Positions 7,694-56,260 of a stretch of DNA of 64,000 nucleotides are shown here, one piece after another (within the stretch, counting starts at the first letter, position 1; every line of letters begins with the position of its first letter). Made by a program: the position numbers and the translations under genes. The stretch is taken from the IMG/VR virus record IMGVR_UViG_3300022660_001620. One strand, given 5' to 3'. Source of the stretch: an uncultured virus (IMG/VR IMGVR_UViG_3300022660_001620). Its lineage: Duplodnaviria > Heunggongvirae > Uroviricota > Caudoviricetes. The notes under the pieces were generated by a model. The model searched no databases. It saw only the letters and a program-made list of their open reading frames with translations, and was not told where the DNA came from.

Positions 7694-7795
7694 GGGGATT
7701 GGGGATGCTGCCCCAACAAGCAAATTTTCACGATTACCTCGAATGAGATAATCGTGAAAATAGGGGAAGTGGTACCACTTCCCACTGCTTGCCAA
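7694..7795 (+). other. Putative oriT: three inverted repeats followed by a GCTTG^CCA nic-like site
   Basis: TTGGGG..CCCCAA; 13-bp IR ATTTTCACGATTA/TAATCGTGAAAAT; perfect 20-bp palindrome GGGAAGTGGTACCACTTCCC 7764-7783; GCTTGCCA 7787-7794 resembles pC221-type MOBP nic. Confidence 0.6.
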
Positions 7796-7801: not shown

Positions 7802-8278
7802 TTAGAGAAGAAAAAGCAATGCTCCTAATATTATGCCTGCGCATCCTAAAACTCCACCAAGGAAAGAGGATTTATATGTAATGCCGCCCAGTTTATCTAT
7901 CGTGATTTCAAAAAAGATGTATGCAAATAGCGGTATTATCATTACTTGCAATCCAAGCATAGATAATAATTTATTGCCAAAACCCCATGTGGAATAATTA
8001 TTAGCCAAATCGTTAAGTAAGAAAAGTAGATAATTTGCCGCAACTATTGATCGTAATAAATTCCAACCTGTGAACCAATATACGAGACGCTTAGAATACT
8101 TTTTTATGATTGGCAAAACCTCAATCAATATTACTAACAAAAAGAAAGCATATATTCCGGCTTTTATTGCAAACCAATTCTGAGTAATCCACAGAGTTGC
8201 GCTAAGTGCAAGTGAATCCGCACACAAAGATATTACAAAAAACAAAATAAATAATAATTCAAAAGATATGATGATCAT
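7802..8278 (-). CDS. Multi-pass membrane protein
   Basis: About five hydrophobic segments; last gene of the AT-rich operon. Confidence 0.65.
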   Translation of the reverse strand: MIIISFELLFILFFVISLCADSLALSATLWITQNWFAIKAGIYAFFLLVILIEVLPIIKKYSKRLVYWFTGWNLLRSIVAANYLLFLLNDLANNYSTWGFGNKLLSMLGLQVMIIPLFAYIFFEITIDKLGGITYKSSFLGGVLGCAGIILGALLFLL

Positions 8279-8299
8279 TTCTTCTTACCTGTCATATAA

Positions 8300-9418
8300 T
8301 TAATCATTGTTATCTAATAAGAGATTTTTAAGGTTGTTATTTACAAGAATATCACTATTAAAAAGGATTTTGCTCAGGCTAAAAATGAGCTGAGCTTGTT
8401 TTCTTAATCCCATTTCTCGAAATGTTCGTGACATTGAGATAATTGATTTTATTTTTGCTTTATCAAAATCTTCTAAAGTTTTGGCATCTGAGGAAGTAAC
8501 AATATCATAAATATTTTCGATCAATTCTTCACGTTCGTCTACAGACATTGCTTTAATCCACGAGTTAATAATTTTTTCAAACTGCTTTCCAGAAAGAGTT
8601 CTGGAATTATCATAAACAAAATGTTTACCAGAAACTATCCATGAAAATGGATTATGTTGTAAAAGAGACGGACTGGAACTGCGTATAATTGTATAAGTAT
8701 CATGTTCCATTAGAACACCTACAATAGATGATTCTGGGACAAAAGATTGTATTTTCATTCTAATGTCAAGATAGTAATCTGCATTCAAAAAATTTTCATT
8801 AAAACCAGGTGCATCATTGCTAAAAATGTTTATGATACGCTTTTTATGTTCAGAGGAGAGATGTGCGCTTGCCCAAATGGACAAATTACCACCTTTGGAA
8901 TGACCGCCTAAACGTAATGGAAGGTCAATTTCTTGAGCAATCGACTCAACATATTTTGCGGCTTCAAGCTGAGACGGAATACCATCAATAAAACACATAT
9001 TGAGGTCTTCTTTCCATCCAACCAAGGTATTATCTGTCCCTCTGTATGATATAAATGCTGTTGTATCTTGAAGTATAAATGTAACAGCTGCGAATTGTAT
9101 TTCTAATTTCTCATCTGTAATGTCAACAAATTTAAACACTCCCATATCTCTGTAACGTTCAGCGGTTGCAGCTTTATTGGCTAAGGCTACAACATCTTCC
9201 ATTATAATTCCTGGACCATCAAATTTTTGTTCGTCAGGCATTGAATTTATTTTTTCTACAGCATCTCTAAAGAATATAATCTCATCCTTTACACATGAAA
9301 AATCCAGATATGCAAATATGGAAAGTATTAGTGCATCAATTTCGTTAAATGCACTCTGCTGAAAAGATAAGTCCCCTCGCCACTCTATATAATCAAAAAC
9401 ATCAGATTTTTTTCCCAT
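8300..9418 (-). CDS. DUF2974 (Mbeg1-like) alpha/beta-hydrolase/lipase
   Basis: YRGTD..LVGWKED, GHSKGGN, DAPGF, QHNPFSW. Confidence 0.85.
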   Translation of the reverse strand: MGKKSDVFDYIEWRGDLSFQQSAFNEIDALILSIFAYLDFSCVKDEIIFFRDAVEKINSMPDEQKFDGPGIIMEDVVALANKAATAERYRDMGVFKFVDITDEKLEIQFAAVTFILQDTTAFISYRGTDNTLVGWKEDLNMCFIDGIPSQLEAAKYVESIAQEIDLPLRLGGHSKGGNLSIWASAHLSSEHKKRIINIFSNDAPGFNENFLNADYYLDIRMKIQSFVPESSIVGVLMEHDTYTIIRSSSPSLLQHNPFSWIVSGKHFVYDNSRTLSGKQFEKIINSWIKAMSVDEREELIENIYDIVTSSDAKTLEDFDKAKIKSIISMSRTFREMGLRKQAQLIFSLSKILFNSDILVNNNLKNLLLDNND

Positions 9419-9446
9419 TTACGCTCCTTTGTGCAAGTTAGAAGGA

Positions 9447-9542
9447 TTAGTTGTTATGATGAATAAACAATGTAATAAGACCGGCAATGATTGCCAATAC
9501 CATGCCGATGCTTCCTATGACTTTCCATTTGGACTTATTCAT
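9447..9542 (-). CDS. 31-aa single-TM peptide (not in the ORF track)
   Basis: MNKSKWKVIGSIGMVLAIIAGLITLFIHHNN*; GGAGGAG RBS; start overlaps the patatin 3' end. Confidence 0.6.
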   Translation of the reverse strand: MNKSKWKVIGSIGMVLAIIAGLITLFIHHNN

Positions 9543-10413
9543 GTATTTCTCCTCCTTCAGTTATTTTGTCATGGCGGATGATTTTTTTTGCAAGTTTATT
9601 TAGATTAGTCACAATTACATCGCCAGTTATTCTTACAGTTCTATGACTACTATTAGTAGCATTAATTTCAGCAATTCTATTATGTATAAAATCCAAATCG
9701 TCAAAACCATTTGAGAAGATAAATGTCATAATCTCCTTGGTTCTTCTATATCCTTCATTTATCATTCGTATAATAGAATCGTGTTGGATAAAAACCGAGT
9801 TTGATACAATCTTTTTATCTGGGAATGTTAGCCTGATAACTTTTTTGTCAGAGTCAACATCTTCAAAGATGTAATTGACATCATCAAAATAGATGCAAAT
9901 TACATAATCCAAATGTTCTTTTAGAACGGGATAAACTGGAATATTATCGACGACTGCACCGTCGTAAAGAGATTTCGTTCCGATTTTCACTCCTCTATTA
10001 TAAAATGGCATTGCAACACTTGCGCACAAATATTGTTGCATATCCGCTGGCACAATCGAAGAAAAATCATAGTATTCAAGTTCTCTGCTTGAAAGATCAA
10101 GTAATGGAACATAAAATGTGTTTTCAATATTCTTATCTACTACAATATTTTCAATAATTTCTTGCAGAAATGTACTTTTCAATACAGATGTAATAAATCG
10201 TTTATTACCTTCAAGATTAACATTTTCCCAAATATTCTTTGCTTTTTCTAAATTGTCGGTTAGAAAAGCATATGTATTCAAAGTGCCAATTGAAGCAGCA
10301 CTGACATATTCAAAGTCGGAAGGAAGAAAGAACTCACTAATTGCAGTTAAAGCACCAATCTGGTAAGCACCCTTTCCCATTCCTCCCGATAATACTAATC
10401 CTATATGTTTCAT
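9535..10413 (-). CDS. Patatin-like phospholipase
   Basis: LVLSGGMGKGAYQIG, AASIG nucleophile, ASVAMP, DGA. Confidence 0.85.
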   Translation of the reverse strand: MKHIGLVLSGGMGKGAYQIGALTAISEFFLPSDFEYVSAASIGTLNTYAFLTDNLEKAKNIWENVNLEGNKRFITSVLKSTFLQEIIENIVVDKNIENTFYVPLLDLSSRELEYYDFSSIVPADMQQYLCASVAMPFYNRGVKIGTKSLYDGAVVDNIPVYPVLKEHLDYVICIYFDDVNYIFEDVDSDKKVIRLTFPDKKIVSNSVFIQHDSIIRMINEGYRRTKEIMTFIFSNGFDDLDFIHNRIAEINATNSSHRTVRITGDVIVTNLNKLAKKIIRHDKITEGGEIHE

Positions 10414-10443: not shown

Positions 10444-10800
10444 TCAGAAGTAGTATTCGAGTAAATTTTTGTTTTTAAAGAAACACTCATCAATAATATT
10501 GAATTTTGCCCATGTATCACTTTCAAAGCGATATACAATAAAGTCGTTATCTCCGGTATCAAAAAGCGGAAGAATCTTTAATGTGCTAAAATCAACATGA
10601 AGATCTTCGGAAGCTTCCAGAACTTCTTTTGTTGAAAGAGTTCTCCAACCGTTCTCAAAAAAGATACTTTCCTGAGAATAGGAGATAATTTTTTTGACAA
10701 TCATAGGCAATTGCATTCCGTATTTTGCTTCTATTTCTTTAATTACATCTTTATTTTCTGATTGATTTTTCAGCTGTAATATAAACTCTTTCCCAGTCAT
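10444..10800 (-). CDS. SMI1/KNR4 (SUKH) family immunity protein
   Basis: IKEIEAKYGMQLP...ILPLFDTGDNDFIVY; directly after the HNH toxin gene. Confidence 0.75.
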   Translation of the reverse strand: MTGKEFILQLKNQSENKDVIKEIEAKYGMQLPMIVKKIISYSQESIFFENGWRTLSTKEVLEASEDLHVDFSTLKILPLFDTGDNDFIVYRFESDTWAKFNIIDECFFKNKNLLEYYF

Positions 10801-10808: not shown

Positions 10809-11456
10809 TCACAACATTTTATCTAATTTACTATAAGGACTATCAGGAGCATGAACCCCCTGCTTATCATAATGTTCATTTGCATGAAGTGGCGTAATAT
10901 TCGAAGCTTCATTTTTTCCACCCATGCCAAGTGGCTGAATATGATGGGCATCATAATCTCCACCCGCTTTTCTTATCATTTTCCCGTTCGATGAATATAC
11001 ATCGTTATCGTATTTGGGCCATGGTTGTCCATGTTCTTCAGCCCATTGTTTCTTTAAATCTGATTTTTTATCATCAAACTCATCACGTTTAGCAGCGGTT
11101 TCCTCTGGTGACAATTTCTTAAGATCTCTTGACTCAAAAGGGCGATCCTTAATAGTATCAGGGCAATCGGAACGATTTTTTAGGTCACTAAAATAATTGT
11201 TTAGATTTGATTCAATATTTTCCGGTTGCTTTTTTTCAACGGCTTGTTCATGCGGACGGACAGTATTAAGTTTTCCTTTTCCATCATTATCAGATGATGA
11301 ATCAATTTTACTAGTTCTACATCTTTCGAAATTATCAGAGGATCGCTCTAACTTCCGCTTATCTATTGAAGATGGAGCAGTATTCTCAGCCATTCCTTTT
11401 GTAGCCACTCCTTTTTCAGGATTCTCGGCTTCATCAAAATTACCTATACGGGCCAT
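10809..11456 (-). CDS. HNH-nuclease polymorphic toxin with shared N-terminal leader
   Basis: WPKY...YDAHHIQPLGMGGKNEASNITPLHANEH...GVH. Confidence 0.8.
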   Translation of the reverse strand: MARIGNFDEAENPEKGVATKGMAENTAPSSIDKRKLERSSDNFERCRTSKIDSSSDNDGKGKLNTVRPHEQAVEKKQPENIESNLNNYFSDLKNRSDCPDTIKDRPFESRDLKKLSPEETAAKRDEFDDKKSDLKKQWAEEHGQPWPKYDNDVYSSNGKMIRKAGGDYDAHHIQPLGMGGKNEASNITPLHANEHYDKQGVHAPDSPYSKLDKML

Positions 11457-11483: not shown

Positions 11484-11777
11484 TTACCAACGGCTGAGTG
11501 TTTTCTGTTTAGTTGCAGGGGATGCAGGTGAATCCCATTCTGTATTATGCGTTGGTTTTCCATCCCAGCGATAAGCATACGATGGTTTATCTGAAAGTTT
11601 ATCTTTACCAGAGTCATTTTTCTCTGGTATATAACTGTATTTGGATTTTGTATCTTCCGTGCGTTCTAACTTTTGTTTATCTGCTTCTGCTGGCGTGATT
11701 GCTTTTTCAAAAGCATTTGATTTATTTGGTGTTTGCTCTGGGCTTTCTGACTCTTTAAAACTATCAATTCTAAGCAT
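11484..11777 (-). CDS. Small hydrophilic protein with shared leader
   Basis: MLRIDSF...DKQKLER...GKDKLS. Confidence 0.7.
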   Translation of the reverse strand: MLRIDSFKESESPEQTPNKSNAFEKAITPAEADKQKLERTEDTKSKYSYIPEKNDSGKDKLSDKPSYAYRWDGKPTHNTEWDSPASPATKQKTLSRW

Positions 11778-11841: not shown

Positions 11842-12825
11842 TTATTGTTTATTATGATATACATATTCTCGTAATATCCACTCATTGTTACCGCTTGAGT
11901 CGATTTGCAGTGCATCAAGCAATTTTTCCGTGTCTACATCGCCATTTCCCTTTCTGCATTTGTCAATAGTATCAGCACTGGTAAAATAGTTGCTCGTTTT
12001 ATCGTTATCTGCCGAACGTAATTGATAAAACACCTCTCCATCTTTTAATTTTCTCGAAGAACCAAAAGCATCTTGATTCATACCAAGGTTCTCCTGGTTG
12101 GAATGCGGATAATTATAATTTTCTATTTCGTTTCGTTCGTTATCATTTTTTATTACTTTCGGCAGATCTCGAGTTGGTCTTGTGCTGTTATTTAATTGCT
12201 GCCATTCTTTATTTTCTGATTTAGAAAGCGGTGTATTATCCACACTAAAAGATTTCCCTTGATTTTTTACATTATTTTTATTCTCTGGAAGTTCAGCAGG
12301 TGTGTTCCTCGTGTTTTCATCAAGTTGCTTCCATATATTTTTCTCTGATTTAGAAAGTGGGGTAGAGTCAACCATTACCGTAGGCGTTTTTATGTTTCCA
12401 TTTTTAGTTGCTGAATCTTTATGTTGCAACTTTTCTTCTCCGACCTTTTCTAAGTAACCTTCTTTGAGCGGAATCCTTCCGTCTTCTCGCAATGGTTGAT
12501 TGCCTGCATTGCGAACAAAAAATTGTTCTCCACCACCTTTTCCATATTTGGGGTTTTCACAGACTGTACCCGATTGAACTAAGTCTCCTGGCTTTTGACG
12601 AATCTGATTTTTATTGTTCAATCGCTCTTTGCCAGTGGTAAGCTTCTGGCTCTCAGAATCCATCTCAATCTTCGGATTGGATAAGATGGATTCTGAGGTT
12701 TTGTTTCCTTCTTGATGAGCAAGCTTTTTTCGCTCATCTTCTGTAACAGATGGGATTGATTCCATTTTATTCTTTGGTTGTGTTTCAAATTTTTCAATTC
12801 CATCAAAATTGCCTAATTTACCCAT
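11842..12825 (-). CDS. Leader-bearing protein with putative permuted TNT/ART-like toxin domain and an internal repeat
   Basis: MGKLGNF leader; GTVCENPKYGKGGGEQFF at aa 86-103; LKDGEVFYQL..SNYFT..ALQI..REY at aa 260-321. Confidence 0.6.
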   Translation of the reverse strand: MGKLGNFDGIEKFETQPKNKMESIPSVTEDERKKLAHQEGNKTSESILSNPKIEMDSESQKLTTGKERLNNKNQIRQKPGDLVQSGTVCENPKYGKGGGEQFFVRNAGNQPLREDGRIPLKEGYLEKVGEEKLQHKDSATKNGNIKTPTVMVDSTPLSKSEKNIWKQLDENTRNTPAELPENKNNVKNQGKSFSVDNTPLSKSENKEWQQLNNSTRPTRDLPKVIKNDNERNEIENYNYPHSNQENLGMNQDAFGSSRKLKDGEVFYQLRSADNDKTSNYFTSADTIDKCRKGNGDVDTEKLLDALQIDSSGNNEWILREYVYHNKQ

Positions 12826-12830: not shown

Positions 12831-13121
12831 TTATTCACGCTCAGTTTCATATCCACGTTCTAACTGACGCTGACCTCTTGATGTATCCCCTTCAGAAGAT
12901 GTATTGTTTGAACGTTCTAATTTTTGACGATCTTTTGCATCCTGTGATTGCTCATTAAGACTTTTTCTTTGTTCTTCAGGAGATTTATCTTGGAATCGAT
13001 CTAATTTTCCCTTAGCTTCAGGTGTTTGTTTTTCAGGAGTCTGTGTTATTTGATTTTTAGGTTTTACATCAGGCATTTCTGCTTCATGACCTTCACGATT
13101 TCTATTACCAAACCATTTCAT
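12831..13121 (-). CDS. Small charged protein built from KL(E/D)R motifs
   Basis: AKGKLDR, DRQKLER, GQRQLER; AAGGAG RBS. Confidence 0.7.
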   Translation of the reverse strand: MKWFGNRNREGHEAEMPDVKPKNQITQTPEKQTPEAKGKLDRFQDKSPEEQRKSLNEQSQDAKDRQKLERSNNTSSEGDTSRGQRQLERGYETERE

Positions 13122-13151: not shown

Positions 13152-14798
13152 TTAGCCCATTGCAAGCATAAGCCAAAACAGTAGTGTCAAAATGCTACCA
13201 ACCGTGCAAACAATATATTTTGTTCTATGGTCAGGCTCAGGATCGCTGGATAAGCCGTAAAATCCTGCTATTGTAGAAATAGGAAGAAGGAATGGCCAAA
13301 TTATTCCAATTAGCCAACACCAAAGTGCGACTTTTCCTGTTGTACTCGGTTTCACCTTTGAGATGACTTCAATATTGCAAATAGCCGCCAATTTAGAGTC
13401 GGAATCGTAGCAGCGGACATTACCTTTTCCTTCATAATTTGTAGATGCAATTACTTGACATCTCTTTCCTGTTTTAGAAGGATTGATGGATGCAATAGTT
13501 TTGTTATCCAGTTCCCAAATGAGGTTTTCGGTAGGTGCATCAGAAGGACTTACATTGCATTCAAGAATAAATGTTTCTCCTGTTTTCAAGCGAACTGACT
13601 GTTGCGAAAAACTTAAATTCTGCAAAGCAGGTTTTACTTCAACCACCAGTGAAGCACTTGTTGCATAGCCAGATACAGTAATTGTTGCCTTACCGTTCTC
13701 GAGTGCAATTATGTTACCACTTTCGTCGACCTGGATAACATTGGGATTAGAAATATTCCATGAGAGTCGGTTGGCATCTTCGGCATTTAAAGGTGTAATA
13801 ATTACATCAATACGATTTCTTTCGCTGCGCTTCAAATACTCAAAACGAGGGATAAGTCTGATTTCCTCTACATATTGATGTTGAATTACAGAAATCTGTT
13901 TTTGAGCAACTACCTCATTTTTATCATTTATGATAGAAATAAAAGTGGTTCCACCTTCATGTGCAGTAACTGTGTCAGCACTACATGAAATGATAGATTC
14001 GTTTTCGCTTCTAAGTGAAAATGCAGTTGTTGGGAAACTTGCAAATTCAATCGGAGTGCTTTTCCCTTTATCTAAAGAAGCTGGAATATCTGTAATATAG
14101 TAGCCAGGAGCATTGTTTTTTATTGAATCCAGCTCTGCTTTCTGGGTCGGGTTTAATTTGGCATATCTCAATGCAGTTATGTATTCCTCGATTAAAGGAC
14201 GAGTAATGAGTTCAAATACTATGTAATCCCAGAATATCGGCATTTCTGTTTGCGGGATAGCATAGTATGCTCGATTCCCAAGGTTCTTGTACGAAACATT
14301 ATCTGAAATGATAATAGGAATACGAACCGTCGAAGGTATTTCGTTTGGGTTAACAAAAACACCAATATCTGCCTTCGGACTATCAACGATGGATAAATAG
14401 TCACTTTTAGGAACGGATGAATTGGAAGGATTGTAAACCGTAATATTAGCATTTTTTTCTACTGTTATATTATTTTGTTCGCTAATAATCGCAAGGCGTT
14501 CTAGAAGCTCTGATGGATCATAGAGCGATTCAATCTCGTGATGCTGAATCGCTTTGCAAAATTCCGATTGACCTGAAGTAGTCAAAAGTAATTTATAAGG
14601 ATACAGCTTACCATAAAAATCAATTTGGTAATCATCGAAAATCTCATTGTCCAGCCCAGGAATAATATTATGGAACGCTTCCATATAAGGGCGATTTAGT
14701 GTTGTGGTAAGTTCACTGTAGGGACTGACCTTTTCTCCATTTATTGTTACCTCTGCTTTACTGGAGAAATATGAATATCTTATTTCTACTTGGTTCAC
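13152..14798 (-). CDS. Ig-like (Big_2) domain protein with C-terminal membrane segments
   Basis: LSWNISNPNVIQVDESGNIIALENGKATITV and LIWELDNKTIASI repeats; hydrophobic C-terminus. Confidence 0.75.
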   Translation of the reverse strand: MNQVEIRYSYFSSKAEVTINGEKVSPYSELTTTLNRPYMEAFHNIIPGLDNEIFDDYQIDFYGKLYPYKLLLTTSGQSEFCKAIQHHEIESLYDPSELLERLAIISEQNNITVEKNANITVYNPSNSSVPKSDYLSIVDSPKADIGVFVNPNEIPSTVRIPIIISDNVSYKNLGNRAYYAIPQTEMPIFWDYIVFELITRPLIEEYITALRYAKLNPTQKAELDSIKNNAPGYYITDIPASLDKGKSTPIEFASFPTTAFSLRSENESIISCSADTVTAHEGGTTFISIINDKNEVVAQKQISVIQHQYVEEIRLIPRFEYLKRSERNRIDVIITPLNAEDANRLSWNISNPNVIQVDESGNIIALENGKATITVSGYATSASLVVEVKPALQNLSFSQQSVRLKTGETFILECNVSPSDAPTENLIWELDNKTIASINPSKTGKRCQVIASTNYEGKGNVRCYDSDSKLAAICNIEVISKVKPSTTGKVALWCWLIGIIWPFLLPISTIAGFYGLSSDPEPDHRTKYIVCTVGSILTLLFWLMLAMG

Positions 14799-14818: not shown

Positions 14819-17800
14819 TTATTTTATCTGTGTATAAATCTGACGATACAAAATGCTATAACTGATTGCATGATGCTCGAACTTCTTCGAATGAAGAATA
14901 TATTGCCGAACAATTTCACGATAAGTATCATCAATAGATACATATTGTGGAAGTGCATTATCAATATGGCTGTACCATTCAGATAATGATTCGTCGGTAT
15001 AACATTCGATTAAATTACCTTCATCATCAGTTTTATATTCAAGGTATTTTTCTGCTTTCCTAAATGCATCATTACACCCAACTAAACGCAACATTGTTCG
15101 TCCGAACAAAATGCTATCGTAACCTTTGGCCATAATGCGGTTAAATTGGACGAGCATTCGGAGCATTTCTGCTTTTTTAGATGGTAATATATCAAATTCC
15201 TCTACCTTGCTAATAACCTTGCTAATATCCTGCTCGTCAGTCAATTCAAATTGATTTATTAGCTCTGAAAGAACGACACTTCTAAATTCCTTGAGTTTCT
15301 CAAATGTTATTGGCTGTTCATAACCTTCATAAGGGTGTTTTGCTTCATTTATCTTAGACAATACTGGAACGGACCAGTTGTTTTGCATAACAACTGCAAC
15401 ACCAGTTTCTAATTTTGCCAATTCATCCGTTTGTTGTTCAGTAAGGGAAACTGAATGTCCGGCAATCTTACAATCTTCATCCTCTGGAAGTCTCATAATG
15501 ATTTTTGTGTTTGTGTTTTTTATAGCAGCTATGTCTACGGAGGTAGGAGACTGGTCCACAATAACAAAGCCTTCTCCATAAGTTCTCATTTCTGCAATGC
15601 TGTTAACAATCATTTCTACAGATTTAGCAACAACATTGTTGCCAGCAGTACCTTGTGAATTCTTAGAATTTTTCAAGATATTATGCGCTTCTTCCAAAAT
15701 TGTTAGATGCTTTAATGCAGAATTACCACGATTGGCGTTTGCCATGCGATGTTCTGTGAGTTTTAGGATCAAAATACCCATAATCAGTGATTTTGTTTCA
15801 GAAGATCCAACTCTACTCAAATCAACAATCGTATTTTCGTCAAATAAAGTTTTGTTATCAACTTCAAACTCATCGCAAAAAATTTGGCCATAAATGCCAT
15901 TAGTCATAGAGTTTACTCGTGTAACAAGAGCACCAATATAGTCTCCTTTTGTATCAGCTGAGTATTCCGAACTATTGATTATTTTGGGGAGTTCCTGTAA
16001 AACGTCTATGAAGGTAGGAAATACAGGTTCACCCTCGCCAATATATACAGAATTTAATAAATCCCATCCCTTACTTACATAAGCTTCTTCAATAGCTTCT
16101 TTAAGTATTGCAGGCATTGCTGCATACATCTCCCAGCATCCATTAAAAATCTCAACTATACGATCCAGGTGTTCCAAAATATGAATACCTTCGCAAAAAG
16201 CAAACGGATTCAATTTTAGCATTTGGTCAATTTGAGGATTGGTGCTGAATAAATTTATGTTTTTAACGTTTCGGAACTCATTGCGATATTCGCCTTTCGC
16301 TGGTTCAATGACCAAAAATGGTATTTTGAATGGTTCCTTTGTTACTTCTTCAATCAATTTGTAGATTGTATTTGATTTACCACTACCTGTTGAGCCAGTT
16401 ACAAAACAATGAGAAGTTAAACTATCAATATTTAGTTTGACAGGAGCATCTTCTTTTTGCCCCATATGGTAGATATGCCCCAGCTCTATTTCTCTTTGTT
16501 TATAAGCTGTGTTGGAAAGCACATTTCTACCAAATTCAGCCATTTCGGTAATCATTATTCCGTTAACTGATTTTCTTGGCAAATTCAACAACTGCGTTAA
16601 CTCCTTTCCGTTGATATAACTGGTAGGAGATAATGCTTGTATATGCTCCGTGTTATTTGAACCATTAAAGACTGGAATTAAAAAAGTCGGGTGCTCACAA
16701 TAGCATAGTGACTCTTCAATACTTGCAGTTATATTGTCAGTACTGTCAAAAAGAGTAAAATTAGGCTTTTCAATACCGGTTTCTTCTCCTAATAATAGAG
16801 AGCGATAAGAGCTTGCAGCAATAGCAGCCGTTTTCTTTTCTTTTGCCATAAAATATGATGCAACTTCCCAAACACCATAAGAACTGCCTGTTTTAAGTCT
16901 TTTTATGTGTCGCTCAATTTTCTCTAAAAGGTTTTCGATACTTTTATCTCTGAATTCAATCGTCAAGTTATCTGTTGTACCAGTAGTTTGGGATGTGGAT
17001 TTCTGGCGAGAAAATGCATCTGTCCTTGTACTTGTATCGGTATTGGTACTTACTTCATTAGAGCCAGTAGACCATCCCTCATTAGTTCCAGTAGTAACAC
17101 CAAAATTTAGTAACATATGCATACCCATATTAAATCCAGAATTTTTACCGTGGGTATGTCCGTCAGAACGTCCAGTCGCCTTAGAGATACCTTTTGAGAT
17201 AGAATCAGAAATACTTTCTGTGATGCCTTCAGTCAAAGTAGTTCCCTCATTGTGTCCATGAGAGCTTGTTTTTTTAGAAAAAGGAAAAAGTGCTGAATAT
17301 AGTTCCTCAAAACCATTCATTCGGTATTCTATTTCGCTGTCTCTTATAGGAGAAGCAATTATCTCACACAGATATTCGCTTCCTCGCATGGTATCAATAA
17401 ATTTTTCTAATCCTTGGATGTATTCCCCCTGTTTAGAATTACGTTCTGAGGGGAGAATATTTACATATGCAATGTTTCTCGGAGTATGTTCGCATTCGCC
17501 TTCATTAAATATTTCGCTGATTTGGCTGGTCTTAATTGCATTTATTTTACTTCCTGGAAAGTTTCCAAGAAACGAGTCGTGTAACACTTCGCTGGCTGTT
17601 GCCGCATTGCTGATTTGTGAAGCTCGAATTCCAAAGTAAAGGTCAACACAATCCGATGATCCTTTCAGTATCATGACGATATTTTTACAAAATGGCATTA
17701 CAGCATGAAAAACACTTATGAGTTTTTCATTTATATCCTCGTTTTTGTCATATACAATCTTTTGAATATGAAATAATCTTGTTAAATTATGTTTTTTTAA

Positions 17801-17923
17801 GTATGTGTCCAATGGATGGACACGATAATCATGCAATGCTTCCAAGTAACTTTTATCAATAAATTGATTTGCTGCTTCGATTTGAGCGAGCATCTGTGTT
17901 TCCGTAATCATACTATTTACCAC
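14819..17923 (-). CDS. HerA/FtsK/VirB4-like ATPase (DUF87-type), 1034 aa
   Basis: Walker A GSTGSGKS, VIEPAKGEY, Walker B LTILEEAHN, EMRTYG, VDQSP. Confidence 0.85.
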   Translation of the reverse strand: MVNSMITETQMLAQIEAANQFIDKSYLEALHDYRVHPLDTYLKKHNLTRLFHIQKIVYDKNEDINEKLISVFHAVMPFCKNIVMILKGSSDCVDLYFGIRASQISNAATASEVLHDSFLGNFPGSKINAIKTSQISEIFNEGECEHTPRNIAYVNILPSERNSKQGEYIQGLEKFIDTMRGSEYLCEIIASPIRDSEIEYRMNGFEELYSALFPFSKKTSSHGHNEGTTLTEGITESISDSISKGISKATGRSDGHTHGKNSGFNMGMHMLLNFGVTTGTNEGWSTGSNEVSTNTDTSTRTDAFSRQKSTSQTTGTTDNLTIEFRDKSIENLLEKIERHIKRLKTGSSYGVWEVASYFMAKEKKTAAIAASSYRSLLLGEETGIEKPNFTLFDSTDNITASIEESLCYCEHPTFLIPVFNGSNNTEHIQALSPTSYINGKELTQLLNLPRKSVNGIMITEMAEFGRNVLSNTAYKQREIELGHIYHMGQKEDAPVKLNIDSLTSHCFVTGSTGSGKSNTIYKLIEEVTKEPFKIPFLVIEPAKGEYRNEFRNVKNINLFSTNPQIDQMLKLNPFAFCEGIHILEHLDRIVEIFNGCWEMYAAMPAILKEAIEEAYVSKGWDLLNSVYIGEGEPVFPTFIDVLQELPKIINSSEYSADTKGDYIGALVTRVNSMTNGIYGQIFCDEFEVDNKTLFDENTIVDLSRVGSSETKSLIMGILILKLTEHRMANANRGNSALKHLTILEEAHNILKNSKNSQGTAGNNVVAKSVEMIVNSIAEMRTYGEGFVIVDQSPTSVDIAAIKNTNTKIIMRLPEDEDCKIAGHSVSLTEQQTDELAKLETGVAVVMQNNWSVPVLSKINEAKHPYEGYEQPITFEKLKEFRSVVLSELINQFELTDEQDISKVISKVEEFDILPSKKAEMLRMLVQFNRIMAKGYDSILFGRTMLRLVGCNDAFRKAEKYLEYKTDDEGNLIECYTDESLSEWYSHIDNALPQYVSIDDTYREIVRQYILHSKKFEHHAISYSILYRQIYTQIK

Positions 17924-18050: not shown

Positions 18051-18353
18051 TTATCTCAGCTTGCGGCCCTGAGAATCTACCAAGCTATTGCAAAGGATTC
18101 GAATAAAGTCGATAAGTACCCAAATAGCTTCAACAATAATCAGTCCCCATCCCAAAACAGGAATAAAAATACCGCCAATGAACATAACTAACATCACAAT
18201 ACCAGAAGCATGGCTGCCAAGATAAAATCTGTGGACGCCAAGCATACCAAAGAAAAGGCAGAATAAGGCTGTTGCAACTTTACCTTTGTCTGATACCGTA
18301 GACTGAGTTATTACTTCACCTACAGAACCACTATTGTTAAATTCGTCGCTCAT
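18051..18353 (-). CDS. TM2-domain membrane protein
   Basis: LFCLFFGMLGVHRFYLG...IWVLIDFIRIL...DSQG; GGAGGA RBS. Confidence 0.85.
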   Translation of the reverse strand: MSDEFNNSGSVGEVITQSTVSDKGKVATALFCLFFGMLGVHRFYLGSHASGIVMLVMFIGGIFIPVLGWGLIIVEAIWVLIDFIRILCNSLVDSQGRKLR

Positions 18354-18466
18354 AATTTTTTCCTCCGTATTTAGTATGATATAGGAAATAGGTGTCAGGC
18401 AATTTTCGTAGAGTATCTTACTCCACGAAGAAACTATCGGCAACTATTCACACCACATTCATTAGT

Positions 18467-18495
18467 ATTATAATGATTTCGCCTGCTTTTGTCAA
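18467..18495 (-). promoter_or_regulatory. Consensus sigma70/sigmaA promoter for the AT-rich operon
   Basis: TTGACA (18495-18490), 17 nt, TATAAT (18472-18467). Confidence 0.8.
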
Positions 18496-18688: not shown

Positions 18689-19762
18689 TTATGCCGTCAG
18701 TCCGATTTCCTGTAAACACTGCTTAAACATGATCTCGCTGCTCATGTAGCCGAGTATCTTGCGGGGGTAATTATTTATCCACTGTTCCGTCGCGGCGATC
18801 TCCGCCTTGCTCACCTTTGCAAAGTCGGTTCCCTTTGGATGCTTGCGCCGAATCATAATATTCTGGTTCTCGTTGCTGCCCCGCTCCCATGAGGAATACG
18901 GATGGCAGAAGTAAATCTTTGTCCGGGGAATCGTCTTATTGATAACAGAACGCTCCAGCTCCTCCGCCGCCGAAAACTCAGAGCCGTTGTCTACTGTGAT
19001 GCTCCTGAACACCTTTCGGAAGATCGGAGCACCCAGCTTTCTTTCCAGCGCGTCGATGGCCTTGACGACGGTTTCCGCCTTTCGATTTGGGATTAGCACG
19101 ATGATCTCCCGCCGGGTTTTTCTCTCGGTCAGCACCAGCAGGGCCTTTGTGGAGGTATTCGCGCCGCTGTAAACCGTGTCCATTTCCCAGTGACCAAAAA
19201 TTTCCCGGTTATCGACCTCTACCGGGCGGCGCTCGATGCTCTCACCAGCCGGGGCGCGGGCAGGCTCCTTAGTTTCCACCCGCTTATAACTGGCCTTGTG
19301 CTTTCCCCTCCGGGGCAAATCAACCTGAGTAAGCCGCAGGAACACACCCTTTTTGATATAGCTGTACACCGTTGCCACAGACACGGAAGTTTTGAACACT
19401 TTCCCCTCCATTTGTGCATAACCCAAAACGGCGGCAGGGCTGCAATCATTGGCAATGATCGTTTCCTCAATGTAGGTCGCAAGCTCATGGTCATTACCGA
19501 TTTTCAGATCAGGCCCTTTCTCCCGCAGATTGGCTTGATACCGTTCCTCTGCAATGTCCGGGCTGTATGCCGTGGTCATTTCCCATGTGTCGCCGTTCAG
19601 CCGCTCATAGGCTCCGCGCTTCAATTCACGGTAAACCGTGGAAACATGAACGCGCAGCTTCCCGGCGATCTCGCCGGGCTTTAATCCCATCCGCAGCCAC
19701 TTTTCGATTCGCAGTCTGTCCGACTTCGTTAGGTGTTTGAATGTCCGCTTTGTGCTTTGCAC
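18689..19762 (-). CDS. IS30-family DDE transposase
   Basis: HTH VHVSTVYRELKRG; GHWEMDTV, ITVDNGSEF, SWERGSNEN, INNYPRKILGY; probable GTG start at 19762 after GAGGGGAGG. Confidence 0.9.
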   Translation of the reverse strand: MQSTKRTFKHLTKSDRLRIEKWLRMGLKPGEIAGKLRVHVSTVYRELKRGAYERLNGDTWEMTTAYSPDIAEERYQANLREKGPDLKIGNDHELATYIEETIIANDCSPAAVLGYAQMEGKVFKTSVSVATVYSYIKKGVFLRLTQVDLPRRGKHKASYKRVETKEPARAPAGESIERRPVEVDNREIFGHWEMDTVYSGANTSTKALLVLTERKTRREIIVLIPNRKAETVVKAIDALERKLGAPIFRKVFRSITVDNGSEFSAAEELERSVINKTIPRTKIYFCHPYSSWERGSNENQNIMIRRKHPKGTDFAKVSKAEIAATEQWINNYPRKILGYMSSEIMFKQCLQEIGLTA

Positions 19763-19902
19763 AGTGGAAACCTCCCCTCTGGTATCTGCGCAGGCGGTGT
19801 CGGTTTTTCCGTTCCGTTCTGCTTGTCGCATTTTGTCTTATTTACGCCCCTATCATAATTCACAATTTCGTTTTTCGCAACTTATTTATTGCAAATGAAC
19901 GC

Positions 19903-19955: not shown

Positions 19956-20351
19956 TTAAGTATGCTCTGCGTTTTCGCTCTCTGCGGGCAGCTCAACTTC
20001 GCTCTCAACGAACACATCGCCCAGCAGGCCAATACCATTCTGTACCGCAATATCCAGCTCGATCACGCGGGCCTCGATCATAGCCCGTACTTCCTGCGTT
20101 ACCGTGATGCCCTTTGCCTCCAGCATCTTGACCACATAATCATTCTTGGGAATAGTCAGTGTCCCGGCTTCGGCCATCTTCTCCGCCGCCTTGACAAAGG
20201 TGCCGACGATGGAGTACAGCCGCTTTTCTTTCAACCAGGGGATGCCGGTGTTCACCACCCAGGGCAGGAACACACAGGTAAAGAGCAGGCCGCAGATTTC
20301 GACCAGGGAATCCAGCAGCACCGCAATAATGTTGGTGATCAGATCGTTCAT
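19956..20351 (-). CDS. Holin (LL-H-like)
   Basis: N-terminal TM, VKAAEKM...K..YV..L...IEARV; follows the endolysin. Confidence 0.7.
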   Translation of the reverse strand: MNDLITNIIAVLLDSLVEICGLLFTCVFLPWVVNTGIPWLKEKRLYSIVGTFVKAAEKMAEAGTLTIPKNDYVVKMLEAKGITVTQEVRAMIEARVIELDIAVQNGIGLLGDVFVESEVELPAESENAEHT

Positions 20352-20363
20352 GGTAAATCCTCC

Positions 20364-22476: not shown

Positions 22477-22812
22477 TTATTCCTCCTGCCCCATGGGGCT
22501 GATCATGTTGTCCGGCCACTCGTCGCCGCCGATCACTGCGCGGTATGCCTTGTCGGCTTCCGCAATTTCATCGCGCCCGGTTTCGGTGTCGCCCAGCTCC
22601 GCAAGGCGCATGGACAAAACCTTGATCGCCCGCGCCTGGATTTCCGTCACCGATTCCAGTTCCTGAATGATTCGCAAATGGCTCATGCTTTCCATCCTTT
22701 CTGCTGCTTCCCGCAACAGATCGTTGATCTCTCCGATCTGGCGCAAAAATTCCCCGTCCGGCAACGCCTCGTCTACGCCGTAGAACAGGGACAGATAGTG
22801 CTTGTTCTGCAT
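22477..22812 (-). CDS. Hypothetical acidic helical protein downstream of the RT
   Basis: GGAAAGGAGG RBS before MQNKHY; possible second start at MSHLRII. Confidence 0.55.
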   Translation of the reverse strand: MQNKHYLSLFYGVDEALPDGEFLRQIGEINDLLREAAERMESMSHLRIIQELESVTEIQARAIKVLSMRLAELGDTETGRDEIAEADKAYRAVIGGDEWPDNMISPMGQEE

Positions 22813-50329: not shown

Positions 50330-50390
50330 CTAAAAAAATTTTGCGCTTCCGAACCCGCAGAGCTTGGCGCTGCCGCCGCCAGTACCTACG
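50330..50390 (-). other. Putative cos region
   Basis: Minus strand AGGTACT-GGCGGCGGCAGCGCCAAGCTCTGCGGGTT loosely resembles lambda cosQ (GGGTCCT)/cosN; non-coding, upstream of GpA/Nu1 terminase. Confidence 0.35.
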
Positions 50391-50437
50391 CGCGGGCGCG
50401 TTTAGAATTTCGCGCGGGTGTGCGCGAGCGCGGGCGC

Positions 50438-51471: not shown

Positions 51472-51500
51472 AATCACAAACACAAATGGAGGTAAACACC

Positions 51501-56257: not shown

Positions 56258-56260
56258 CCA

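What the first reader, a model, noticed from the sequence alone, without database searches (positions are those of the whole stretch)
16950..17275. Long Ser/Thr/Gly beta-hairpin-like insert with a hydrophobic tip inside the ATPase
Seen: about 105 aa (TSSHGHNEGTTLTEGITESISDSISKG...FNMGMHMLLNFG...STNTDTSTRTDAFSRQKSTSQTTGTTDNLTIE) between two amphipathic helices, roughly symmetric about a short hydrophobic turn. Known: S/T-rich hairpins form the barrels of aerolysin-type pores, and HerA-family ATPases are ring oligomers. Inference: the oligomer could form its own long beta-barrel conduit, making motor and channel one protein.
Basis: inference. Interest (0 to 1): 0.7.

Follow-up and report, generated by a model that had tools for sequence, protein, structure and literature searches.

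The report
Coevolving membrane-tipped beta-hairpin in toxin-linked ATPase
A ring-type motor protein carries a very long, conserved two-stranded hairpin with a greasy tip and is encoded beside toxin and immunity genes, so it may be the core of an undescribed bacterial toxin-delivery machine.

Summary
Residues 219-323 of a 1034-aa HerA/FtsK-type ATPase (window 14819-17923, minus strand) are Ser/Thr/Gly-rich with a strict two-residue period (0 of 5000 shuffles reach it).

It is not a disordered linker. All 313 unique relatives examined keep an insert, 92-272 residues long. dN/dS is 0.03-0.04, as low as in the ATPase domain. Covariation pairs the two arms antiparallel in one register (i+j=540): the 20 strongest of 2116 arm-by-arm pairs all lie on it. 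One face is 92% S/T/G/N/Q with 0.3% charged residues. The other face carries compensating salt bridges. A hydrophobic centre sits at the midpoint in 194 of 198 inserts with a clear peak.

The gene heads an operon with membrane proteins and four genes that share an N-terminal leader. In the sister clade, two dynamin-family GTPases precede the ATPase and a leader-bearing nuclease toxin plus immunity gene follow it.

Best reading: a membrane-inserting beta-hairpin stalk on a toxin-translocating ATPase. No homology to aerolysin was found. I found no paper describing this family.

The parts
14819..17923 (-). Gene for a 1034-aa HerA/FtsK-superfamily ATPase. The likely true start is the ATG at 17911. 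Layout: N-terminal domain aa 1-470 interrupted by the hairpin, P-loop domain aa ~479-870, unassigned C-terminal region 871-1034.
   Evidence: ORF and translation. Pfam DUF87 50.2 bits against a cut-off of 23.2. PDB HerA chains matched with E 7e-13 to 8e-9, ATPase part only. No PDB match for aa 871-1034.
16955..17269 (-). The Ser/Thr/Gly-rich insert, aa 219-323: a long beta-hairpin centred on residue 270.
17135..17269 (-). Arm 1 (aa 219-263). Odd positions are S/T/G/N. Even positions alternate Leu/Ile (230, 234, 238, 242, 246) with charged residues.
   Evidence: Column statistics over 103 homologues. Covariation with arm 2 on i+j=540.
17096..17134 (-). Hydrophobic tip (aa 264-276, FNMGMHMLLNFGV), within a 21-residue stretch free of charge (261-281).
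   Evidence: The midpoint position of the hydrophobic peak across the family.
16955..17095 (-). Arm 2 (aa 277-323). Odd positions are S/T/G/N/Q. Even positions are mostly charged or polar.
15314..16489 (-). P-loop ATPase domain (aa 479-870). Walker A GSTGSGKS is at aa 510-517 (window 16373-16396). Walker B region LTILEEAH is at aa 740-747. Both are invariant or nearly invariant in 103 homologues.
18051..18443 (-). TM2-domain membrane protein, the first gene of the operon. It is conserved upstream in the closest loci.
   Evidence: Pfam TM2 E 2.3e-10. tblastn hits in 6 of 80 loci, just upstream of the ATPase.
18467..18495 (-). Promoter-like site with a perfect 12-of-12 match (TTGACA, 17 nt, TATAAT), upstream of the TM2 gene.
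   Evidence: It is the only 12/12 site among 46 found; the total count of sites is not above chance (shuffles 44.2 +/- 6.5).
13152..14798 (-). 548-aa partner protein with Ig-like Big_2 domain(s) and two C-terminal hydrophobic segments. It starts 21 nt downstream of the ATPase gene.
   Evidence: Pfam Big_2 E 2.7e-12. It is the conserved downstream neighbour (cluster c3) in 24 of 80 loci. C-terminal TM-like segments. Only Ig-like PDB hits.
12831..13121 (-). Leader-bearing small protein (96 aa).
   Evidence: Group-A leader HMM E 1.2e-19.
11842..12825 (-). Leader-bearing protein (327 aa). Its C-terminal part has no family match.
   Evidence: Leader HMM E 2e-20. No Pfam family.
11484..11777 (-). 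Leader-bearing small protein (97 aa).
   Evidence: Leader HMM E 1.6e-18. blastp to the N-terminus of the 215-aa protein E 3.9e-6.
10809..11456 (-). Leader-bearing putative toxin (215 aa). Its C-terminal part (aa 80-215) is 65% identical to the gene downstream of the ATPase in locus L044, which has a different N-terminus.
10444..10800 (-). Putative immunity protein (118 aa) with a weak SUKH-1/SMI1_KNR4 match.
   Evidence: Pfam E 0.002, 19.2 bits, below the cut-off of 25.4. Its homologue follows the L044 toxin homologue at 51% identity.
7802..10413 (-). Distal operon genes: patatin-like phospholipase (9535-10413), Mbeg1-like hydrolase (8300-9418) and a hydrophobic 158-aa protein (7802-8278). None carries the leader.
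   Evidence: Pfam. The patatin gene recurs in 5 of 80 loci. N-termini.
7724..7783 (-). Two terminator-like hairpins that close the low-GC operon.
   Evidence: GC is 33-39% over about 6-18.5 kb, against about 59% around it.

Best explanation
The insert is a rigid two-stranded antiparallel beta-hairpin of about 50 residues per arm that projects from the N-terminal domain of a HerA/FtsK-type ATPase and ends in a hydrophobic tip.

Proposed mechanism. The ATPase forms a ring. This is inferred from its family; six-fold symmetry is assumed. The tips enter the cytoplasmic membrane from the inside. The arms then form a stalk of about 12-13 nm between motor and membrane. The uncharged S/T/G/N face of each arm turns inward and the salt-bridged face turns outward. 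In a hexamer this would give a 12-stranded barrel with a C-alpha radius of about 10.6 A. ATP hydrolysis threads proteins that carry a shared polar N-terminal leader, encoded directly downstream (nuclease, NADase-type and unknown toxins), into or along this stalk and across the membrane. Membrane partners would assist: the TM2 protein and the Big_2 protein here, and two dynamin-family GTPases plus a tail-anchored protein in the sister clade. Immunity genes protect the producer and its kin.

What is shown: the hairpin and its register, the two distinct faces, the central hydrophobic element, conservation and purifying selection, and the linkage to leader-bearing toxin/immunity cassettes and membrane proteins.

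What is inferred: membrane insertion of the tip, ring closure into a barrel, passage of cargo, and export rather than intracellular use of the toxins.
For: Hairpin.
- MI-APC on 307 unique family sequences (Neff 233), each arm anchored from its own flank: the register i+j=540 has mean 0.151, against -0.0002 +/- 0.0275 for other registers. The top 20 of 2116 arm-by-arm pairs all lie on it.
- mfDCA: 1.85 against 0.016 +/- 0.319, with 27 of the top 40 pairs on it. Intra-arm coupling runs i+2 > i+4 > i+1 > i+3.
- The result also holds in the subset of 101 equal-length sequences and in a whole-N-terminus DCA, where 225-315 and 217-323 rank 2nd and 3rd of all pairs.
- Cross-strand pairs on the even face: acid/base 376 observed against 207 expected, base/acid 543 against 270, acid/acid 74 against 258, base/base 57 against 216.

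Faces. Over 308 sequences the odd face is 91.6% S/T/G/N/Q and 0.3% D/E/K/R (n=12,320). The even face is 35.4% charged and 26.9% hydrophobic.

Tip.
- The hydrophobic centre lies at a median 0.500 of the insert (IQR 0.491-0.508), within 0.42-0.58 in 194 of the 198 inserts with a 13-residue hydropathy peak of at least 0.9. Insert lengths in that set are 98-272 and arm lengths correlate with r=0.85.
- In 21 of 73 loci the centre is an uncharged Gly/Ala-rich stretch of at least 36 residues with a peak of at least 1.5.
- Glycine-zipper Pfam families are matched in 3 and 2 of 49 members.

Constraint.
- An insert is present in all 313 unique relatives.
- It is 105 residues long in 77 of 103 close homologues.
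- dN/dS is 0.034 and 0.044, against 0.032 and 0.023 for the ATPase domain.

Context.
- The window holds one low-GC operon: TM2, ATPase, Big_2/TM protein, four leader-bearing genes, then a putative immunity gene.
- A clade-2 leader HMM hits 31 of 3835 ORFs. Each hit is the ORF directly downstream of an ATPase, one per locus.
- 32 of 41 such loci have a Pfam nuclease-toxin domain in that gene, and 26 of 41 have a known immunity family next to it.
- The same leaders are joined to different toxin domains.
- Partner proteins have C-terminal TM segments.

Precedent. In phage P68 the lower collar protein has two 39-residue antiparallel strands inserted in a helical domain. Twelve copies form a 24-stranded barrel 108 A long (PMC6795507, passages read).
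Against: - No structure could be predicted for the monomer or the oligomer, so barrel closure is untested.
- Covariation shows only the intra-hairpin ladder plus its +/-2 neighbours (542: 0.58, 538: 0.46 against 1.85). These may be diagonal contacts and cannot be assigned to a neighbouring protomer.
- The odd face excludes charge almost completely and shows size-compensating pairs such as N-G, S-T and G-S. That fits tight packing at least as well as a water-filled lumen.
- The window's tip is short and only moderately hydrophobic (13-residue hydropathy 0.93).
- 37 of 308 inserts have no hydropathy peak of 0.5 or more, and the E. coli plasmid homologue has charged residues in its tip.
- Many clade-2 tips look like two-helix Gly/Ala hairpins, not beta tips. 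A single uniform pore architecture is therefore doubtful.
- Inserts of up to 272 residues would give stalks of 25-30 nm on the cytoplasmic side, with no evident reason.
- The family also occurs in diderm bacteria and in archaeal MAGs, where crossing one membrane would not release a toxin.
- WYL regulators occur in 10 of 80 loci, and the family is carried on plasmids and prophage-adjacent islands. Both also fit a defence system.
Confidence: 0.42

Rival explanations
1. Anchor and spacer only. The hairpin is a rigid beta-ribbon tether. Its tip anchors the ATPase ring to the membrane at a set distance. The actual channel, if there is one, is made by the partner membrane proteins: the TM2 protein and Big_2/TM protein here, and the tail-anchored protein and dynamins in the sister clade. 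Cargo does not pass through the hairpins.
For: The hairpin and its central hydrophobic element are shown, but no inter-protomer strand ladder is seen. Every operon type encodes at least one separate membrane protein next to the ATPase. Tips vary in kind from short beta-like to long Gly/Ala, which is easier to accept for an anchor than for a pore. T7SS and T4SS ATPases of the same superfamily are anchored by their own membrane segments and use other proteins as the channel (my own knowledge; PMC3482391 passages, name the YueA-like pump).
Against: A mere tether would not need one face to be 92% S/T/G/N/Q with 0.3% charge across about 80 positions and 308 sequences. Nor would it need size-compensating covariation on that face. 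Both imply that the face is buried against something.
Confidence: 0.25
2. Abortive-infection or defence effector. The operon is an anti-phage system. On infection the ATPase ring drives its hairpins into the cell's own membrane, or releases the neighbouring toxins from their immunity partners. Either way the infected cell is killed.
For: The ATPase domain matches PADLOC HerA and mad8 models (8e-24 and 5.9e-18). The sister clade has two dynamin-family GTPases with weak matches to the Eleos proteins LeoA and LeoBC (8.5e-12 and 7.7e-8). A two-gene dynamin system protects B. subtilis from phages (bioRxiv 10.1101/2022.05.11.491447, passages read). WYL regulators occur in 10 of 80 loci. The island lies next to a prophage lysis cassette and an IS30 transposase. 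Relatives lie on plasmids (12 records). The spread across phyla and envelope types fits an intracellular role.
Against: The cargo looks like a classical polymorphic toxin set: a shared N-terminal leader, swapped C-terminal nuclease domains, and SUKH, YezG, PoNi, SUFU or DUF6985 immunity genes. That architecture is known from secreted interbacterial toxins (PMC3482391 and PMC3113570, passages read). The PADLOC matches cover only the generic ATPase domain. None of the ten other window proteins scanned matched any PADLOC model, so no Sir2, DUF4297 or other known HerA partner is present among them. The window operon has no dynamins.
Confidence: 0.18
3. A soluble beta-ribbon with another job. The hairpins pack face to face in a lower-order bundle or sandwich. 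They would act as an oligomerisation or partner-binding arm, for example for the Ig-like Big_2 protein, and the central hydrophobic patch would be a protein contact rather than a membrane element.
For: Strict small-residue packing and size compensation on one face. The weak hydrophobicity of some tips: 37 of 308 have no peak of 0.5 or more.
Against: In 21 of 73 loci the centre is 36-63 uncharged Gly/Ala-rich residues with hydropathy 1.5-2.35, which is membrane-grade, with glycine-zipper Pfam matches. Hairpin-to-rest covariation shows no coherent contact with the N-terminal domain.
Confidence: 0.1
4. A low-complexity, disordered Ser/Thr linker with no defined structure.
For: Its composition is 57% S/T/G/N/Q, and no family or structure match covers it.
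Against: In-register covariation with z of about 5.5. dN/dS of 0.03-0.04. A fixed length of 105 residues in 77 of 103 close homologues. Strict two-residue parity. No DNA repeat.
Confidence: 0.02

Closest known systems
Lower collar protein of phi29-like podoviruses (P68 gp18; PDB 6iac/6q3g)
   Same: A two-stranded antiparallel beta insert rich in S/T/N is set inside another domain of a ring-forming protein. In P68 the strands are residues 116-154 and 184-222 with a loop at the tip, and twelve copies form a 24-stranded barrel 108 A long that conducts a polymer (PMC6795507, passages). The family profile aligns its insert to exactly this stretch, chain residues 112-222.
   Different: The match is not significant (E=0.18, biased composition), so this is an analogy, not kinship. 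The collar has no ATPase, no hydrophobic tip and 12-fold symmetry, and it conducts DNA outside the cell.
Stems of beta-barrel pore-forming proteins (aerolysin/ETX-MTX2 type, alpha-haemolysin, anthrax protective antigen)
   Same: A Ser/Thr-rich hairpin with two-residue alternation and a short stretch whose outward face is hydrophobic. The anthrax protective antigen stem is a long, mostly soluble barrel that passes unfolded protein (my own knowledge).
   Different: No Pfam match to any such family. The only PDB hit of this kind, 8hx3_A, has E=0.38. Only about 6-10 residues per strand could face lipid. The inner face is free of charge. The hairpin is part of a cytoplasmic motor and would enter the membrane from the inside.
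Type VII secretion pumps (EssC/YueA/EccC) with WXG/LXG polymorphic toxins
   Same: An FtsK-HerA-superfamily ATPase is encoded with polymorphic nuclease toxins that share an N-terminal trafficking element, followed by SUKH-type immunity genes (PMC3113570 and PMC3482391, passages).
   Different: Only one P-loop domain was found in the 1034-aa protein, whereas EssC-type pumps carry several (PMC3482391 footnote: three HerA/FtsK domains). No WXG100, LXG or EsaC genes appear among the neighbours scanned. The membrane element is an internal beta-hairpin insert rather than N-terminal helices. The partners are Big_2/TM2 proteins or dynamin-family GTPases. The leaders are short polar motifs, not helical bundles.
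HerA ATPases of DNA repair and of anti-phage systems (Sir2-HerA, DUF4297-HerA, MADS mad8)
   Same: The P-loop domain matches at the sequence level: Pfam DUF87, PADLOC HerA 8e-24, and PDB HerA chains down to E 7e-13.
   Different: Scores against the HerA equivalog models are 42-64 bits against cut-offs of 800-970. The 470-aa N-terminal domain with its hairpin matches nothing. No NurA, Sir2 or DUF4297 partner is present.
NCBIfam NF033849 'ser_rich_anae_1, serine-rich protein'
   Same: A curated 1163-position model that aligns from arm 2 of the hairpin through the ATPase domain (for example aa 267-998 of L047 onto model positions 352-1107). It therefore appears to be a sister family with the same layout.
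   Different: The 16 of the 20 family members tested that match it score 78-155 bits, against a cut-off of 650; four do not match it at the E-value limits used. The family carries only a descriptive name and no function.
Eleos / LeoABC bacterial dynamins
   Same: The sister clade places two dynamin-family GTPases upstream of the ATPase (33 of 73 loci). They match LeoA and LeoBC weakly.
   Different: The matches are weak (E 1e-8 to 1e-12). Eleos is described as a two-gene system (bioRxiv 10.1101/2022.05.11.491447, passages). The window operon has no dynamin.

Membership tests
FtsK-HerA superfamily of P-loop ATPases | P-loop domain matching the HerA central domain (Pfam PF01935) above its curated cut-off, with Walker A and B motifs intact | tested here: met
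   50.2 bits against a cut-off of 23.2, aa 479-712. GSTGSGKS and EEAH are invariant or nearly so in 103 homologues. PDB HerA chains are matched with E 7e-13.
HerA proper (DNA-repair or anti-phage HerA equivalogs) | Score above the NCBIfam equivalog cut-off | tested here: not met
   NF040937 63.8 vs 800, NF042943 51.7 vs 800, NF040819 51.5 vs 970, NF042944 41.7 vs 850, CedD 108.4 vs 600.
HerA proper | Ring (hexamer) assembly | not testable with these tools
A ring is inferred from the family only.
Aerolysin/ETX-MTX2-type beta pore-forming toxins | Sequence or fold membership in the toxin family | tested here: not met
   No Pfam match in the window protein or in 49 relatives at E up to 1. PDB profile hit 8hx3_A has E=0.38. 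Fold comparison was not possible.
Aerolysin/ETX-MTX2-type beta pore-forming toxins | Amphipathic insertion hairpin with alternating polar and hydrophobic residues long enough to span a bilayer | tested here: inconclusive
   Alternation is present through 264-276, within a charge-free stretch of 21 residues. Only three hydrophobic positions per strand. 37 of 308 relatives lack a clear hydrophobic peak.
Type VII secretion (EssC/YueA pump with WXG/LXG substrates) | Multi-domain FtsK-like pump plus WXG100/LXG substrates and EsaC-type partners | tested here: not met
   One P-loop domain only. No WXG100, LXG or EsaC family among the scanned neighbours.
Polymorphic toxin system (in the sense of Zhang et al. 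2012) | Shared N-terminal trafficking element joined to varied C-terminal toxin domains, each followed by a cognate immunity gene | tested here: met
   Leaders link toxins with Colicin-DNase/WHH, LHH, Endonuclea_NS_2 and unassigned C-termini. 32 of 41 loci carry nuclease domains and 26 of 41 carry immunity families. In the window there are four leader-bearing genes and one weak SUKH gene. Toxicity and protection were not tested.
NCBIfam NF033849 serine-rich protein | Score above the curated cut-off of 650 bits | tested here: not met
   82.9 bits for the window protein. Of the 19 relatives tested, 15 match at 78-155 bits and 4 do not match.
Eleos (LeoA/LeoBC dynamin defence system) | Two adjacent dynamin-like GTPase genes that match the PADLOC Leo models | tested here: not met
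   No dynamin in the window operon. In the sister clade there are only weak matches, E 8.5e-12 and 7.7e-8.
Phage lower collar / tail tube proteins | Significant sequence match to the collar protein | tested here: not met
   6iac_B E=0.18, insert region only.

The most novel reading that the evidence does not exclude
The family is the core of an undescribed protein-delivery system, spread by mobile elements across Bacillota, Bacteroidota, Actinomycetota, Pseudomonadota and archaea. In it a single HerA-type ATPase ring is both motor and channel. Its six internal hairpins would close into a charge-free, Ser/Thr-lined beta-barrel of 12 nm or more. The tip of that barrel perforates the membrane from the cytoplasmic side, and leader-tagged polymorphic toxins are pushed through it.
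Probability: 0.28. Interest if true: 0.9.

Novelty: new variant of a known kind. Interest (0 to 1): 0.76.

Why it matters
Pumps of the FtsK-HerA superfamily drive DNA segregation, conjugation, viral packaging and type VII secretion. In the well-studied cases the membrane channel is made of helices or of separate proteins.

Here a large family keeps a 92-272-residue coevolving beta-hairpin with a membrane-grade centre inside the motor protein itself. The family has 1125 representatives at 50% identity and relatives in at least 562 species genomes. It is wired to leader-tagged nuclease and NADase-type toxins with immunity genes.

If the reading holds, it adds a new way for gut and soil bacteria to deliver toxins. 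It also gives a defined export signal and motor to test. And it offers a natural example of a charge-free Ser/Thr beta stalk whose length evolution tunes from about 12 to 30 nm.

Even if the barrel idea fails, the hairpin is an unusually clean case of a structure proven by covariation alone. The operon types, with Big_2/TM2 partners or with two dynamins, are uncharacterised.

Tried and rejected
Structure tools.
- As a result no fold, no fold search and no oligomer model could be made.

Searches that gave nothing useful.
- ESM Atlas, two look-ups: no named cluster at a useful score, and no structure is held.
- PDB profile search with the N-terminal alignment A3: only three insignificant hits (E 0.18, 0.38, 4), all to the insert.
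- PDB search of the C-terminal 164 aa: no match.
- PDB search of the Big_2 partner: only Ig-like hits.
- Earlier findings of this scan: none.

A failed tip definition. I first defined the tip as the longest charge-free stretch. That failed: arm lengths correlated at r = -0.25, because the S/T arms themselves contain long charge-free runs. I replaced it with the most hydrophobic 13-residue window.

A second strand-pairing ladder. I looked for one that would show neighbouring protomers. Only the +/-2 registers are raised, and these cannot be told from diagonal contacts within one hairpin.

Contact between hairpin and N-terminal domain. Whole-N-terminus DCA found 74 mixed pairs among the top 400, with no coherent pattern.

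RNA evidence. Four metatranscriptome runs from one study hold contigs 90-99% like the ATPase and Big_2 genes at low depth, including one over 16887-17221. These are relatives, they come from contigs only, and DNA carry-over is not excluded. This is not evidence of expression.

The window's own assembly is not held, so genome-wide and relative-genome searches were not possible.

Pfam found no family for the C-terminal parts of the window's 215-aa and 327-aa leader proteins.

The phylogeny is the quick tree. The careful search did not finish.


Full report
1. WHAT IS THERE

The finding lies in one ORF, window 14819..17923 on the minus strand, 1034 aa. Close homologues are 1030 aa and begin at the ATG of codon 5, so the real start is probably 17911. 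Numbering here follows the 1034-aa ORF.

The Ser/Thr/Gly-rich stretch is aa 219-323, window 16955..17269.

Pfam places the HerA central domain (DUF87) at aa 479-712 with 50.2 bits against a cut-off of 23.2. PADLOC HerA and mad8 models and NCBIfam HerA/CedD models match the same C-terminal half, far below their cut-offs. A profile of 103 homologues finds solved HerA chains with E 7e-13 to 8e-9, again over the ATPase part only.

The insert therefore lies in an uncharacterised 470-aa N-terminal domain, not in the P-loop domain. Covariation links segments before and after it (186-358, 162-375, 161-340, 168-444). It is a true insertion into one globular domain.

2. IS THE PATTERN MORE THAN CHANCE?

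- Composition of the insert against the whole protein: T 21% vs 7.0%, S 15% vs 8.7%, G 13% vs 5.8%.
- 47 of the 53 odd positions are S/T/G/N/Q.
- The period-2 power of that indicator is 9.40 against 0.23 +/- 0.33, and 0 of 5000 shuffles reach it.
- The parity runs unbroken through the tip. Every even position from 264 to 276 is hydrophobic: F, M, M, M, L, F, V.
- There is no tandem DNA repeat.

3. CONSERVATION

- A word-indexed search with aa 1-470 found 402 proteins with E up to 0.001 among 8000 scored candidates.
- A full phmmer scan of 1.84 billion representatives found 1125 hits (692 at E up to 1e-10). Nearly all of the 150 listed are 1000-1150 aa.
They come from Lachnospiraceae, Oscillospiraceae, Bacilli, Bifidobacterium, Bacteroidota, Succinivibrio and two methanogen MAGs.
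- In 103 close homologues the insert is 105 residues in 77 and 98-110 in the other 26.
- In 313 unique N-terminal regions drawn from all three searches, the insert between fixed anchors is 92-272 residues. None lacks it.
- dN/dS for the insert is 0.034 against L001 and 0.044 against L002. The ATPase domain gives 0.032 and 0.023.

4. THE HAIRPIN IS REAL

- MI-APC on 101 equal-length sequences puts i+j=540 first: 0.068 against -0.001 +/- 0.017. The two strongest pairs, 256-284 and 222-318, both lie on it.
- I then used 307 unique sequences of any insert length (Neff 233), counting each arm from its own flank. That register scores 0.151 against -0.0002 +/- 0.0275. The top 20 of 2116 arm-by-arm pairs all lie on it, from 217-323 at the base to 259-281 near the tip.
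- Mean-field DCA agrees: 1.85 against 0.016 +/- 0.319, with 27 of the top 40 pairs on 540, 9 on 538 or 542, and 4 elsewhere. Within each arm, coupling runs i+2 > i+4 > i+1 > i+3, the signature of a strand.
- On the even face, cross-strand partners compensate in charge: acid/base 376 observed against 207 expected, base/acid 543 against 270, acid/acid 74 against 258, base/base 57 against 216.
- On the odd face, partners compensate in size: S-T, N-G, G-S, G-N.
- Over 308 sequences and 39 positions of each arm, the odd face is 91.6% S/T/G/N/Q, 6.2% Ala and 0.3% D/E/K/R. The even face is 35.4% charged and 26.9% hydrophobic. Neither face has any proline.
- Arm 1 of the window protein also carries a Leu/Ile at every fourth residue (230, 234, 238, 242, 246), conserved as hydrophobic in 95-100% of 103 homologues.

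5. THE TIP

- I took the most hydrophobic 13-residue window as the centre. 198 of 308 unique inserts have a peak of at least 0.9.
- In those 198, the centre lies at a median 0.500 of the insert (IQR 0.491-0.508) and within 0.42-0.58 in 194. Insert lengths in that set are 98-272, and the two arm lengths correlate with r=0.85. The arms therefore lengthen and shorten together.
- 37 of 308 inserts have no peak of 0.5 or more.
- The tip varies in kind. The window and its clade have about 13 alternating residues within about 21 charge-free ones. Some clade-2 members have a longer alternating Val/Gly/Asn stretch. Others have 36-63 charge-free Gly/Ala-rich residues with hydropathy 1.5-2.35 around a Pro-x-Thr-Gly-Gly turn, which looks like a two-helix glycine-zipper hairpin.
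- The long type occurs in 21 of 73 loci. Pfam glycine-zipper families are matched in 3 and 2 of 49 members.
- The E. coli plasmid homologue has charged residues in its tip.

6. GENE CONTEXT

The window.
- The gene sits in a low-GC stretch, 33-39% over about 6-18.5 kb against about 59% around it.
- That stretch reads as one minus-strand operon. It starts at a perfect promoter-like site at 18495-18467 and ends at two terminator-like hairpins at 7783-7724.
- Gene order: TM2-domain protein; ATPase; a 548-aa Big_2 protein with two C-terminal hydrophobic segments; four genes of 96, 327, 97 and 215 aa; a weak SUKH-1 match (E 0.002, below cut-off); a patatin-like phospholipase; an Mbeg1-like hydrolase; a hydrophobic 158-aa protein.
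- The four genes share an N-terminal leader, a G-N-F-type motif near the start and a K-x-K-L-E motif about 35 residues later. An HMM seeded on them finds 14 ORFs among 3835. All are in 7 of 81 sources and all lie downstream of the Big_2 gene. One of them is an Endonuclea_NS_2 toxin in L008.
- The C-terminal part of the 215-aa protein and its SUKH-like neighbour recur in L044 behind a different N-terminus.

Across 80 loci.
- Neighbours fall into types that follow the ATPase tree. This is the quick tree, with 72 loci plus the window; 8 truncated ORFs were left out. The two main clades each have 100% SH-aLRT support.
- Clade 1 (33 rows) has the Big_2 partner in 24 rows, often with a transglutaminase-like protein. 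It has a GAP1-N2/GAP1-M protein in 5 rows.
- Clade 2 (40 rows) has two dynamin-family GTPases and a tail-anchored protein of about 200 aa upstream in 33 rows.
- In clade 2, a leader HMM hits 31 of 3835 ORFs. Each hit is the gene directly after an ATPase, one per locus.
- Of the 41 loci whose next two genes I scanned, 32 carry a nuclease-toxin domain: Colicin-DNase/WHH 21, LHH 5, Endonuclea_NS_2 5, GH-E 1. 26 carry an immunity family next to it: SUKH 18, YezG 3, DUF6985 3, PoNi 1, SUFU 1. Two clade-1 loci carry TNT-domain proteins.
- Leaders are shared between toxins with different C-terminal domains.

Mobile elements.
- Annotated plasmids show the clade-2 operon in Lactococcus cremoris pB26B and in one E. 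coli plasmid. That is 1 of 5426 complete E. coli genomes.
- Twelve viral contigs encode relatives, one of them identical over the ATPase.

7. MECHANISM

The hairpin, its two faces and its central hydrophobic element are shown. The rest is inferred.

A ring-forming ATPase with six such hairpins could close them into a 12-stranded barrel. For a shear number equal to the strand number, the C-alpha radius is about 10.6 A and 45-50 residues give 119-132 A. The charge-free face would line the barrel, the salt-bridged face would be outside, and the tip would sit in the membrane. The polar leaders on the neighbouring toxins would suit threading by the motor.

A solved precedent exists for the geometry. 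The P68 lower collar protein has two 39-residue antiparallel strands inserted in a helical domain, and twelve copies form a 24-stranded barrel 108 A long (PMC6795507, passages read). The family profile aligns to exactly that stretch, but without significance (E=0.18).

Points against the conduit.
- No second strand ladder is visible.
- The extreme exclusion of charge and the size compensation on the odd face fit tight packing as well as a lumen.
- Tips are heterogeneous, and some are weak.
- Arms of up to about 100 residues would make very long stalks on the cytoplasmic side.
- The family occurs in diderms and archaea.

The main rivals are these.
- The hairpin is only an anchor and spacer, and partner proteins form the channel.
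- The operon is a defence system.
- The hairpin is a soluble packing arm.
- It is a disordered linker. The data contradict this one.

8. COMPARISON WITH WHAT IS KNOWN, AND NOVELTY

The protein is a member of the FtsK-HerA superfamily. It reaches no curated equivalog cut-off. NCBIfam NF033849, 'serine-rich protein', appears to be a sister family with the same layout. Of the 20 members tested, 16 match it at 78-155 bits against a cut-off of 650, and 4 do not match.

The system works most like type VII secretion: a pump of the same superfamily plus polymorphic toxins with an N-terminal trafficking element and SUKH immunity (PMC3113570 and PMC3482391, passages read). But it has a single P-loop domain, no WXG/LXG/EsaC genes, other partners, and a beta-hairpin membrane element.

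Eight full-text searches were answered. I read passages in five papers. The papers were PMC3482391, PMC7159879 (including its section 27), PMC3113570, bioRxiv 10.1101/2022.05.11.491447 and PMC6795507. None described this ATPase family, its hairpin or its operons. The pairing of 'dynamin' with 'DUF87' occurs in no held paper. Supplements were not read, and subscription journals are not covered.

9. VERDICT

Noticed in passing
window 19956-63331: A complete myovirus-like prophage lies next to the island. It has holin and endolysin (19956-21842), tail fibre and baseplate genes, tape measure (32656-35991), sheath (37381-38829), major head protein, portal, terminase (45280-47115), and replication and methylase genes. 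Its terminase is 89-92% identical to prophages in Oscillospiraceae genomes, which suggests the host family.
   Followed up: partly
window 22773-24062 (minus strand): A reverse transcriptase gene (PHROG 1423, E 6.5e-101) sits between the lysis cassette and the tail-fibre genes. That is the usual place of a diversity-generating retroelement that targets a tail fibre. I did not look for template and variable repeats.
   Followed up: no
window 18689-19831 (minus strand): An IS30-type transposase-like ORF (380 aa) lies between the low-GC operon and the prophage lysis genes. In related loci (L001, L002, L005, L017) a phage-type integrase lies at the matching position upstream of the TM2 gene. The island therefore looks like a separate mobile element.
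   Followed up: partly
L022 and L023; also L018 and L024: Nearly identical ATPase domains (branch lengths 0 to 0.003) are recorded in an Oscillospiraceae MAG and a Muribaculum (Bacteroidota) MAG. This is either very recent transfer between phyla or a binning error.
   Followed up: no
L082 (E. coli TW10590 plasmid, record 49932-58331): A clade-2 operon (two dynamin-family genes, a 290-aa protein, the ATPase, an HNH/ENDO VII nuclease, and an SMI1/KNR4 protein) sits on an IncI-type conjugative plasmid beside etpB and an IS66 transposase. It is the only copy among 5426 complete E. coli genomes.
   Followed up: partly
L029, L031, L036, L053, L055: In five loci the ATPase follows a GAP1-N2/GAP1-M protein of the GTPase-centric conflict systems described by Kaur et al. 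2020. It is itself followed by a transglutaminase-like protein. The passages I read of that paper do not mention this ATPase.
   Followed up: partly
L035 aa 220-411: The hairpin region of a Bacillus family member gives a weak match (E 8.8e-7) to the C-terminal part of the PADLOC LeoB model. This may reflect a shared Gly/Ala membrane hairpin, or only composition.
   Followed up: no
window 1628-2989 and 4981-6375: On the other side of the island lie a phage-type DNA helicase/primase gene (PHROG 1313, E 3e-124) and two ORFs of PHROG 26285 (57-1010 and 4981-6375). The island is therefore flanked by mobile-element genes on both sides.
   Followed up: no
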